A stretch of 64,000 nt of DNA, taken from NCBI GenBank assembly GCA_951406725.2, contig OX597836.1, positions 11,532,001 to 11,596,000 on the forward strand, given 5' to 3'. Positions within the stretch are counted from its first letter, which is position 1. Each line of letters opens with the position of its first letter. The notes under the pieces are model-generated. The model saw only the letters and a program-made list of their open reading frames with translations. It was not told the DNA's origin and made no database searches. Positions 23,728 to 27,168 of this stretch are shown in pieces. The position numbers were made by a program, and so were the translations under genes. Source of the stretch: Octopus vulgaris (lineage: Eukaryota).

Positions 23728-23858
<131 letters not shown>

Positions 23859-23884
23859 TTTATTTTTAAGCAGTAGAAAATTCA

Positions 23885-23936
23885 ACAAAATCTGTTACTC
23901 TGAGTTTCTCGTTGCCGTTCATCAGACAGTTTTTGC
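23885..23936 (-). ncRNA. Mirror-copy type I hammerhead ribozyme
   Basis: Exact reverse complement of 23944-23995. Confidence 0.75.
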
Positions 23937-23943
23937 CATTCTA

Positions 23944-23995
23944 GCAAAAACTGTCTGATGAACGGCAACGAGAAACTCAGAGTAACAGATTTTGT
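23944..23995 (+). ncRNA. Type I hammerhead ribozyme (minimal, Penelope-type)
   Basis: gcaaaaactgt-CTGATGA-a-cg-gcaa-cg-a-GAAA-ctc-a-gag-T-A-acagattttgt. Stem I: 4 bp, 1 mismatch, 6 bp. Stem II has a GNRA loop (A.A at the base). Near-palindromic stem III. Predicted cleavage after GUA at 23984. Confidence 0.75.
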
Positions 23996-24289
23996 TGAAT
24001 TTTCTACTAAAATAAAGCATATTACTCTACCACTGGTATTTGAGTACTCTTTTTTCCACCTTGTTTCACATTTATGTGTTTACTCCGGTATATAAATATA
24101 TATATATATATTGTGCTTTAAATGAAGATTTATTAGTGAAGATTCTGTAAATAATAACAATTATAAGCTTACAGCTTATAAGCGTTCTCTGTATTTTGTC
24201 TAAAGAAAATAGTTTGCGGAAAAAAGTCCAACGAAGAAGTTACAGTCTCCCTCACCTTTCCCCTCTCTCTGTTTACATATATACATATA

Positions 24290-24368
<79 letters not shown>

Positions 24369-24370
<2 letters not shown>

Positions 24371-24870
24371 GAGTGGCCGTGTGGTAAGTTGTTTGCTTAC
24401 CAACCACATGGTCCCGGGTTCAGTCCCACTGCGTGGCACTTTGGGCAAGTGTCTTCTATTGTAGCCTTGGGCCGACCAAAACATTGTGAGTGGAGTTGGT
24501 AGACGGAAACTGAAAGAAGTCCGTCGTATATATATATGTATATATATATATATGTGTGTGTGTATATGTTTGTGTGTCTGTGTTTGTGTCACCCCCCCTC
24601 CCCCAGCATCGGTTGACTTAGCGGTTCGGCAAAAGAGTCCGATAGAATAAGTACTAGGCTTACGAAGAATAAGTCCTGGGGTTGATTTGCTCGACTAAAG
24701 GCGGTGCTCCAGGATGGCCATAGTCAAATGACTGAAACAAGTAAAAGAGAAAGAAAGAGAGAGAGTATATAATGTAAATAGTGAGGTCGATTCGTTCGAC
24801 TAAAATTCTCCAAGGCAGTGCTGCAGCATGGCCGCAGCCTAATGACTGAATCGTGCATATGATGAAAGAT
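24369..24870 (+). mobile_element. SINE-A, near full length, plus a second tail fragment (24783-24870)
   Basis: aggagtggccgtgtggtaag...ggcggtgctccaggatggccatagtcaaatgactgaaacaagtaaaagag. Confidence 0.9.
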
Positions 24871-25325: not shown

Positions 25326-25930
25326 GGCGGCGAGCTGGCAGAAACGTTAACACGTCGGGCGAAATGCTTAGCGGTATTTCGTCTGTCGTTACGTTCTGAG
25401 TTCAAATTCCGCCGAGGTCGATCGATAAATTATGTACCAGTTACGCACTGGGGTCAATGTAATCGACTTAATCCGTTTGTCTGTCCTTGCTTGTTCCCTC
25501 TATGTTTTAGCCCCTTGTGGGTAATAAAGAAATAGGTATTTCGTCTGCCGCTACGTTCTGAGTTCAAATTCCGCCGAGGTCGACTTTGCCTTTCATTCTT
25601 TCAGGGTCGATAAATTTTAAGTACCAGCTACGTACTGGGGACGATGTAATCAACTTAACCCCTTTGTCTGACCTGGTTTGTCCCCCTATGTTTAGCCCCT
25701 TGTGGGCTATAAAGAAATAAGAAACGTTAGCATGTCGTCGGAATGCTAAGCTGTATTTCGTCTGCCGTTACGTTCTGAGTTCAAATTCCGCCGAGGTCGA
25801 CTTTGCCTTTCATCCTTTCGGGCTCGATTAAATAAGTACCAGTTACGTACTGGGGTCTATGTAATCGACTTAATCCGTTTGTCTGTCCTTGCTTGACTCC
25901 TCTTTGCTTAGCCCCTTGTGGGTAGTAAAG
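25326..25930 (+). mobile_element. SINE-B head-to-tail trimer
   Basis: Units restart at 25535 (aagaaata|ggtatttcg) and 25720 (aagaaata|agaaacgttagc). Confidence 0.92.
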
Positions 25931-27168
25931 CTACACCTCCGTCCTGCAGCACAAACTCGAAACACCGCAACCCATTTACATTTAAATTCTATCTCTCCTC
26001 CCTTACTTTCTGTTTCCTACGGACGCAAAGTGATAAGCATTTCATCTTTTCTGTCTCTCTCATGCTTTTTCTTCTACTGCCACTCTCTCACTCTCTACTT
26101 ATCTTCTAACTGTTTCACATATACACATTATCTCGTTAACAAGACAGCAAATAAATACGATTTGATAATTATTATACGTTGTTTGTTCGAAATTAAATAC
26201 TAAACTGAAGCTGTCACAGCTGTTACTTACAATCTAATAATCCCACCCGAATGCTAGGAATAACTTTTATGTGAAAATATTTGACTCAATCATTAAGATA
26301 TTAGACTGTTACCTTCGTACTACACAGACACTGATATTGCTAAACTCTTCTGTGTTATCTCCGCTGTATTAAAGTATTTCCTTCCGTATACATAGCGTGA
26401 GCATATGATATTTATTTCTTTATTGACCACAGTGGGATGAATATAGAGGGGACAAATAAGGTCAGACAAAAGGGTTAAGTCGATTACATCGACCCCAGTG
26501 CGTAACTTGAAATTTCAGCACAGGCTTTGCTAACAGCCATTGCCTTTAACATAACATCGTTTGTCAATGATGACCATATTTGTCAACGAGTTGACAGCCA
26601 CCACGCGTGTATATGTATGTGTGTATGTATGTATGTATGTATGTATGTATGTATGTATGTATGTATTGTGTTCTTTTTCCCTTTAATTTTACAGTAAATT
26701 TTAACTGGCCGCCTACTGTGATCATCCTCTAAGTTTTAAGGTCTTGTAGATTTTTATGTATGTATGTATGTATGTATGTAGGTATGTATGCATGTATGTA
26801 TATACGTACGTATGTATGTGTATACGCATGCATGTATGTATATATGTATGTATGTCTGTACATATGTATGTATGTATGTTTGTATGTATGTATGTATGTA
26901 TGTATGTATGTATGTATGTATGCTTGCATGTATGTATGTATGTATGTATCTTTGTATATAATCATGTATGTATGTATAGAAACGTTTCGTCTCATGTTGC
27001 TCGGTGATCACTTCGTCACCTGACATGAGGTACACCGTGCACACCTGTGTAGGCAGGCACTACTGCCTATGTATTGCACATGCATTTGATCATTATAAAG
27101 AAAAACACTATTGTGCATGTTGTTCAACAGGAAATTGCAGAACCATCTTTTTCGGCCACCGAGCGACC

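What the first reader, a model, noticed from the sequence alone, without database searches (positions are those of the whole stretch)
23872..24008. Perfect palindrome carrying back-to-back hammerhead ribozymes on both strands
Seen: 65-bp arms with zero mismatches and a 7-nt spacer. Each arm contains CUGAUGA, a stem II with a GCAA loop, GAAA, a near-palindromic stem III, a GUA cleavage site and a 10-bp interrupted stem I. One deviation is an A.A pair at the base of stem II. Established: inverted pLTRs with minimal hammerheads occur in Penelope-like insertions. Inference: a transcript from either direction makes the antisense arm first and the ribozyme second, so a 65-bp hairpin competes with catalysis. 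This would be a self-masking, bidirectional ribozyme cassette, and also a likely ADAR/Dicer substrate and DNA cruciform. Perfect arm identity suggests recent origin or arm homogenisation.
Basis: partly seen in the sequence, partly recalled or inferred. Interest (0 to 1): 0.85.

Follow-up and report, generated by a model that had tools for sequence, protein, structure and literature searches.

The report
Penelope retrotransposon twin-start palindrome, 1,100+ copies
This hairpin is one of more than 1,100 similar head-to-head stubs of an active jumping gene (a Penelope-like retrotransposon) and likely forms when two short DNA copies of the front end of its RNA are joined during insertion; it is likely a by-product rather than a ribozyme switch, but the stubs as a set hint at how these elements copy themselves.

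Summary
The 65/7/65 palindrome and both hammerhead motifs are there. They form the 5' junction of a truncated Penelope-like (Hydra-type) insertion in (TA)n. One arm is the pLTR end plus a 72-nt tail; the other is the inverted pLTR end without the tail. The 'spacer' is native element sequence, and the arms differ just beyond 65 bp. The genome holds 1,134 such head-to-head hammerhead cores, 10 with this exact junction, and these arose independently. Intact 3.35-kb elements exist. Arm identity is ordinary (22 of 61 sampled palindromes). Inverted pLTRs, tails and opposite-strand minimal hammerheads are published. Read-through RNA would mask both ribozymes, and nothing suggests a selected switch. 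Not found in print: arm ends pile up 81-86 nt upstream of the pLTR end, at an initiator-like base just 5' of helix I (25 of 55 young, 21 of 30 older copies), while ORF-complete copies never stop there (0 of 22). The longer arm is as often tail-less as tailed. This best fits two cDNAs primed at two internal sites of one RNA, running off its 5' end and joined by microhomology. Verdict: new member of a known kind, useful as a mechanistic dataset.

The parts
23738..23857 (.). (TA)n microsatellite, left part of the insertion target (TA-rich repeat continues to about 23590)
   Evidence: sequence; flanks are (TA)n in nearly all sampled copies
23858..23936 (-). Inverted arm: pLTR end without tail, from just 5' of helix I to 'site 1' (AAATAAAG); one extra A; rare G>A allele shared with the other arm
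   Evidence: allele counts 39 vs 3,900 in tail-bearing copies
23880..23935 (-). Minus-strand minimal hammerhead (CUGAUGA starts at 23925; predicted cut 23896/23895)
   Evidence: mirror of the plus-strand motif
23936..23943 (+). Junction: 1-nt microhomology (C23936) plus native element sequence CCATTCT(A); initiator-like, A23938 = element position 84, the base where arm ends pile up (candidate RNA 5' end, inferred)
23938..24000 (+). Plus-strand type I minimal hammerhead: helix I 5' strand 23938/23945-23954, CUGAUGA 23955-23961, stem II A.CG-GCAA-CG.A 23962-23971, GAAA 23972-23975, palindromic stem III ACUC-A-GAGU 23975-23983, predicted cut 23984/23985, helix I 3' strand 23985-24000
24001..24017 (+). 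Rest of the pLTR end up to site 1; carries a private 4-nt deletion that ends the perfect palindrome
24018..24089 (+). 72-nt 'tail' (site 1 to site 2); in full elements it lies between the pLTR end and the ORF leader
24090..24111 (.). (TA)n, right part of the target; no target-site duplication can be discerned

Best explanation
The palindrome is the 5' junction of a short insertion of an active Penelope-like retrotransposon in a (TA)n repeat, likely made when two cDNAs primed separately from the two cut DNA strands were joined head-to-head. Shown: family membership, copy numbers, tail on one arm only, variable junctions, a sharp upper limit of arm length. Inferred: the element's protein nicks both strands of (TA)n and starts reverse transcription inside its RNA at site 1 (pLTR end) and site 2 (tail end), as shown in vitro for a lizard PLE. 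Both cDNAs copy one donor RNA toward its 5' end, often run off at the initiator-like A just upstream of hammerhead helix I (about 55% that this base is the transcription start), and are end-joined over 0-6 nt of microhomology. The two hammerheads are passengers: each would need a partner to form stem III, stem II is weak, and read-through RNA would pair them into a 65-bp hairpin.
For: Family: 3,353-bp tandem units with a 727-codon open frame (YRDD, C-terminal GIY-YIG-like region), with hammerhead and tail directly upstream of the ORF; 59 of 61 scored protein matches have no stop; ESM Atlas neighbours at 0.96-0.99 carry GIY-YIG, RVT_1 or HTH_animal in part of their members. Abundance: 3,900 exact pLTR-end+tail matches, 1,134 head-to-head cores, control 0. 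First 100 matches on C1: 69 independent head-to-head pairs, 61 short, partner arm tail-less in 60 of 61. One donor per event: arms agree at subfamily sites 60/60, 35/35, 26/26 and 41/42 against 51-76% under random pairing; the window's two arms share a 1% allele. Two cDNAs rather than self-copying: the tail-less arm is the longer one in 21 of 61, the tailed arm in 14, within 3 nt in 26. Boundary: 25 of 55 tail arms that reach position 81 stop at 81-86; 21 of 30 in an older subfamily that lacks CTAG and the AG dinucleotide; stronger 8-nt palindromes 10-15 nt further upstream are rarely used. Literature: both strands cut and extended, two internal RT starts bounding the tail (PMC11167929); inverted 5'-truncated copy and tail typical (PMC8557442).
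Against: No RNA 5'-end data: only contigs were available. No extra G 5' of A84 in the 7 older copies that end at 84-85, so no cap signature. The TATA-like word 27 nt upstream is not kept in older subfamilies. In D. virilis the start lies about 120 nt upstream of helix I, with an intron between. The boundary also coincides with the end of the extended helix I in the young and middle subfamilies, so a structure-based stop is not excluded. A single linear capped template does not explain why ORF-complete copies never stop there (0 of 22; nearest 92 and 97). Arm agreement could partly reflect waves of subfamily activity, and a few palindromes have discordant arms (L020, L066). Deletions after a fold-back could also shorten either arm.
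Confidence: 0.8

Rival explanations
1. Self-priming or fold-back: one cDNA, or an antisense RNA as proposed for rotifer Penelopes, snaps back at a micro-palindrome (CTAG) and is copied onto itself; the endonuclease then resolves it at site 1.
For: Arms almost always share alleles; many junctions sit on CTAG or other short self-complementary words; PMC3846280 reads junction palindromes as self-priming on an antisense template.
Against: A fold-back of a sense-templated tail cDNA needs the tailed arm to be the longer one, but it is shorter in 21 of 61 and in 5 of 10 copies with this junction. Long palindromes have unequal arms and long unpaired centres. The boundary persists in subfamilies without CTAG.
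Confidence: 0.12
2. One reading: a selected self-masking, bidirectional ribozyme cassette that works or moves as a unit.
For: Masking is thermodynamically certain for read-through RNA; 1,134 copies exist; two free arms co-fold as a double hammerhead (-28.2 against 2 x -13.0 kcal/mol).
Against: The 10 copies with this junction belong to different subfamilies, carry the tail on either arm and do not share the window's variants. About 39 of 62 short palindromes lack at least one full helix I strand. No host gene was found in the window (0 of 108 frames reach a Pfam cut-off). Minimal PLE hammerheads cut poorly even as dimers (PMC4209133).
Confidence: 0.04
3. Library or assembly fold-back artefact.
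For: The locus itself could not be checked against reads.
Against: The arms differ by indels and by the tail; there are over a thousand loci with varied junctions; contigs of an independent public run (X14) show a strand-switch joint and a loose end at the same element position, and all four runs show (TA)n loose ends at sites 1 and 2.
Confidence: 0.02

Closest known systems
Hydra-clade C-terminal EN+ PLEs (Craig et al. 2021, PMC8557442; e.g. Hydra-2_Amil, Penelope-13_HM)
   Same: RWK and DKT motifs, no CCHH, CxxC and CxH in the EN, (TA)n target, hammerhead in the pLTR. Hydra-2_aMil has the same stem I, core, ACTC-N-GAGT stem III and cleavage base; Penelope-13_HM is listed with an inverted 5' copy and a hammerhead on both strands.
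   Different: Not Hydra-1_Obim (its hammerhead differs); unit 3.35 kb; linker reads CNFKNESSC in L051 and L052 instead of CxCx5C; stem II reduced to 2 bp + GNRA + A.A; thousands of copies, mostly short palindromes.
Poseidon PAc of Anolis (Frangieh et al. 2024, PMC11167929)
   Same: Two internal RT start sites bound the tail; both strands are cut and extended at AT-rich DNA; the hammerhead is dispensable for insertion in vitro.
   Different: Different clade; in PAc the hammerhead and tail overlap the ORF, here both lie upstream of it; in the two of four parts read, that paper does not treat inverted joining or a 5' stop.
Minimal PLE hammerheads (Cervera and de la Pena 2014, PMC4209133) and A. 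vaga Penelope junction palindromes (Arkhipova et al. 2013, PMC3846280)
   Same: Dimer-type palindromic stem III; pairs on opposite strands 100-700 bp apart; inverted pLTR with the tail on one end; TATA/Inr in the pLTR.
   Different: No G10.1-C11.1 pair; the gap here is 0-30 nt; those papers give no distribution of arm ends in the passages read, and favour circular templates or antisense self-priming.
LINE-1 twin priming (recalled, no call)
   Same: Two cDNAs primed from the two target strands on one RNA give an inverted 5' segment joined by microhomology.
   Different: In L1 the second primer anneals by homology at variable sites and the two cDNAs copy different parts; here both starts are fixed and the cDNAs overlap, giving a palindrome.

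Membership tests
EN+ Penelope-like element | Single ORF with RT and C-terminal GIY-YIG endonuclease | tested here: met
   727-codon frame with YRDD at 360 and GVVY...YTG at 596; Atlas neighbours with RVT_1 or GIY-YIG. Pfam itself gave no hit.
EN+ Penelope-like element | Partial-tandem pLTRs, inverted 5' copy, tail at one end | tested here: met
   L051, L052 tandems; L053-L056 inverted; 60 of 61 short palindromes with the tail on one arm
Hydra clade | RWK present, DKG changed to DKT, CCHH absent, CxxC and CxH in the EN | tested here: met
   RWK 53, DKT 129, CRLC 683, CRH 711, no Cys inside the GIY-YIG core; homologs DKT 113 of 120, RWK 92 of 120 (definition)
Hydra clade | CxCx5C linker | tested here: inconclusive
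   119 of 120 homologs have it; L052 has Phe at the second Cys
Hydra clade | (TA)n insertion preference | tested here: met
   Tail ends followed by TAT or TCT in 88 of 100, unresolved in 11
Hydra clade | Placement in the RT tree with named Hydra families | not tested
   No named reference proteins were aligned
Type I minimal hammerhead | Core CUGANGA / GAAA / UH with helix I | tested here: met
   178 of 277 arms have C3U4, 92 have U4C; N17 = A in 271 (the arm set may hold some loci twice)
Type I minimal hammerhead | Palindromic stem III allowing a dimer | tested here: met
   Palindromic in 262 of 277 arms while the loop base varies A/C/T; the co-fold gives the double hammerhead
Type I minimal hammerhead | G10.1-C11.1 pair closing stem II | tested here: not met
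   A10.1 in 275 of 277 arms, opposite A 181, T 55, G 37, C 4
Type I minimal hammerhead | Self-cleavage | not testable with these tools
   No raw RNA reads were offered
Non-LTR retrozyme | Head-to-tail tandem units, each with a hammerhead | tested here: not met
   Arms are head-to-head; one plus-strand copy in the window (definition)

The most novel reading that the evidence does not exclude
These palindromes are the PLE equivalent of failed 'strong-stop' DNA. Two RTs start at sites 1 and 2 near the front of the capped mRNA, run off a start site 7 nt upstream of helix I and are ligated together. Full-length copies never stop there because they come from a different template, a hammerhead-cut and circularised unit or a tandem read-through RNA. 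The ribozyme would then decide whether an RNA yields a working element or a hairpin stub, and the stubs would seed more than a thousand dsRNA sources against the family.
Probability: 0.3. Interest if true: 0.72.

Novelty: new member of a known kind. Interest (0 to 1): 0.42.

Why it matters
The single locus is ordinary. As a set, an active family with over 1,100 young junction palindromes and dozens of intact ORFs is a natural experiment on two points that Craig et al. 2021 call open: how PLEs form inverted pLTRs with a one-sided tail, and what their hammerheads do. It gives one-base predictions (an RNA 5' end at element position 84, a circle junction at the GUA site) that 5'-RACE, CAGE and RT-PCR can test. 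If the host is a cephalopod (inferred), the hairpins are also candidate editing and small-RNA substrates in an animal group with heavy A-to-I editing (recalled).

Tried and rejected
1) An apparent arm-specific A/G difference (A in tail arms, G in tail-less arms) was ascertainment by my query: A 39 against G 3,900 genome-wide. 2) The junction as a mobile cassette: rejected. 3) TTCCATTCTAG as a 3' splice site causing the stop: older subfamilies keep the boundary without AG, and no splice-type joint was listed. 4) A pile-up of ends at the ribozyme cut (position 37-38): only 4 of 122 ends, some due to indels, and 1 of 23 ORF-complete copies; not claimed. 5) Covariation in the extended helix I: one pair goes T-A, T.G, C-G across subfamilies, but the extension is absent in the oldest copies; weak. 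6) RNA evidence: no RNA holder listed; contig depth follows genomic copy number and cannot show ends or editing. The locus could not be checked against reads. 7) Rfam miRNA-family hits over the hairpin are all below their gathering scores. 8) Pfam and PDB sequence searches of the ORF were empty. 9) No earlier notes of this scan. 10) Paper searches without a description of the boundary pattern: Penelope + strong-stop + pseudo-LTR, 0 papers; Penelope-like + twin priming + inverted, 2 unrelated titles, listing only; octopus + Penelope + hammerhead + ribozyme, 2 listed. Subscription papers and Repbase entries were not searchable.

Full report
Observation. The window holds a perfect inverted repeat, 23872-23936 and 23944-24008, with a 7-nt gap; it is the only complex one of its size in 64 kb. 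Each arm reads as a type I minimal hammerhead: helix I (CTGT/ACAG, an A.A, then CAAAA/TTTTG), CUGAUGA, a 2-bp stem II with a GCAA loop under an A.A, GAAA, palindromic ACUC-A-GAGU and GUA, with the predicted cut at 23984/23985. Homology between the arms continues to AAATAAAG at 23858 and 24017, but with a 4-nt deletion on the right and an extra A on the left; that is why perfect pairing stops at 65 bp. Only the right arm goes on into a 72-nt tail, and both ends meet (TA)n. Rfam did not list a hammerhead.

What it belongs to. The window lies in a 2.8-Gb, 227-contig genome, probably an octopus (inferred from size and recalled repeats; no tool named it). Walking upstream from the arm led to a young family: 40 matches at 99-100% among 1,327 candidates, with tandem units 3,353-3,354 bp apart. 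Each unit is tail, ORF leader, a 727-codon open frame, about 1.1 kb of 3' region, hammerhead and pLTR end. Of 61 scored protein matches, 59 have no stop. The protein has YRDD, RWK, DKT, a C-terminal GIY-YIG-like core without CCHH, CRLC and CRH, the features given for the Hydra clade of PLEs (PMC8557442, passages). Its CxCx5C linker has lost the second Cys in the two copies read, though 119 of 120 homologs keep it. Pfam gave nothing; Atlas neighbours carry GIY-YIG, RVT_1 or HTH_animal in part of their members. The supplement of PMC8557442 (part 2 of 59 read, plus a term search) lists Hydra-2_aMil with the same stem I, core, stem III and cut base, and Penelope-13_HM with an inverted copy and hammerheads on both strands; the listed Hydra-1_Obim has another hammerhead. 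The '7-nt spacer' is the element's own sequence upstream of helix I.

How common. Exact pLTR-end+tail matches number 3,900, plus 39 with the window's A allele. Head-to-head hammerhead cores within about 30 nt number 1,134, with control 0, and 10 have the window's exact junction. I fetched the first 100 matches on contig C1. Of these, 71 have an inverted partner within 60 nt; after removing two double counts there are 69, of which 61 are short, and in 60 of the 61 the partner lacks the tail. Arms were identical over the compared length in 22 of 61, with 57 mismatches in 3,740 nt (a slight underestimate, since the search pattern fixed 25 nt of one arm), so 65 identical bases are expected about 37% of the time. 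About 30 of 62 keep both cores and 23 of 62 both full helix I strands (gapped extension overestimates a few). The nine other copies with this junction come from different subfamilies, lack the window's private changes, and, with the window, carry the tail on the longer arm in 5 and on the shorter in 5. They are repeated independent events, not a mobile cassette.

How it forms. In vitro, the lizard PLE protein cuts and extends both target strands and starts RT at two internal sites that bound the tail (PMC11167929, parts 1-2 of 4). Here the two arms end at two such sites. Arms agree at subfamily sites (60/60, 35/35, 26/26, 41/42; random 51-76%), and the window's arms share a 1% allele, pointing to one donor per event, although waves of activity could give part of this and L020 and L066 are discordant. 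A cDNA folding back on itself would make the tailed arm the longer; instead the tail-less arm is longer in 21, the tailed arm in 14, and they are within 3 nt in 26 of 61. Junction overlaps are mostly 0-6 nt. Two separately primed cDNAs joined by microhomology fit best (inferred). The published alternative is self-priming on an antisense template (PMC3846280, passages).

The boundary. Arm ends rise to a peak 80-84 nt upstream of site 1 and drop sharply beyond. Of 55 tail arms that reach position 81, 25 stop at 81-86, 7 at 95-107 and 23 run past 130 (one locus contributes three rows). An older subfamily with no CTAG and no AG there shows the same, 21 of 30. Position 84 is the A of CCATTCT (CTATTTT in the older subfamily), which fits the initiator consensus YYANWYY (recalled); the window's right arm begins 1-2 nt upstream of it. 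Among 30 ORF-complete copies, 23 extend well past the upstream site 1, one of them ends at 38, and none of the other 22 stops at 81-86 (nearest 92, 97; Fisher p = 3e-5; these copies were the best protein matches and some extents are lower bounds). The simplest reading is that short cDNAs run off the 5' end of a linear RNA while long ones use a template without that end, either a tandem read-through RNA or a hammerhead-cut circle as proposed in PMC4209133 (parts 1-2 of 4; circles are shown for retrozymes in PMC7229834, passages). Against: no extra G at the boundary in 7 copies; the upstream TATA-like word is not conserved; the D. virilis start lies further up (PMC2377424, passages); and helix I can extend to exactly A84 in the young family, so a structural stop remains possible. 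No raw RNA reads were available.

The ribozymes. Across 277 arms (some loci may be counted twice), variation falls mainly on N7, the second base of the GNAA loop, the stem III loop base and the helix I mismatch, while stem III stays palindromic in 262. This fits a constrained dimer-type hammerhead. Position 11.1 varies freely (A, T, G, C) against A10.1, and 92 arms carry U4C, a change said to lower activity in vitro (PMC3088659, passage). A.A is thus the state of the young subfamily, not damage to this copy, but the usual G10.1-C11.1 pair is not met and activity may be low. Two free arms co-fold as a double hammerhead; in the full palindrome helix I has essentially zero probability. No host gene was detected in the window, so transcription of this copy is unknown.

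Verdict. Real, and a member of a known kind: inverted pLTR, one-sided tail and opposite-strand minimal hammerheads are all described. It is not a retrozyme, which is head-to-tail (bioRxiv 10.64898/2026.07.22.740005, part 1 of 5 and passages; its supplements are closed). The family itself and the boundary pattern were not found in my searches, which do not cover subscription papers or Repbase. Interest 0.42, carried by the family-wide pattern rather than by this locus.

Noticed in passing
L155, L158, L171; L239, L242, L248, L255, L264: A possible second pile-up of 5' ends just upstream of site 1: 3 of 30 ORF-complete copies end 2-6 nt above it, and 5 of 30 older tail copies within 14 nt. It would fit an RT colliding with a cDNA already primed at site 1. 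The 100-copy sample could not show this because its pattern needs 25 nt.
   Followed up: partly
L193-L234: Older subfamilies carry a non-canonical CCGACGA core (U4C) with an A-U closed stem II; the youngest has canonical CUGAUGA with A.A. Each lineage amplified with one 'defect'.
   Followed up: partly
L068/L069 (G000:C1:4678523, 4679251): Two separate palindromes of different subfamilies 728 bp apart, both with the spacer-less CTAG junction.
   Followed up: no
L053-L056, L117, L142: Long head-to-head copies with arms of 0.5-2.8 kb; arm lengths correlate over 71 pairs (rho 0.48) but not among the short ones (rho 0.22, p 0.08).
   Followed up: partly
L014, L015, L089, L153: Recurring junction that joins position 84 of one arm to position 21-25 of the other through ATTC/GAAT, the outer end of extended helix I.
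   Followed up: partly
window 25374-25935: Three tandem copies of a 190-215-bp SINE-like repeat (families D11, D12, D16).
   Followed up: no
window 24370-24850: tRNA-like SINE heads broken by TA/TG microsatellites directly right of the insertion (identity recalled; ARAGORN found no tRNA).
   Followed up: no
L051 1547-2179: A 210-codon open frame of what looks like another retroelement's 3' end beside the tandem element.
   Followed up: no
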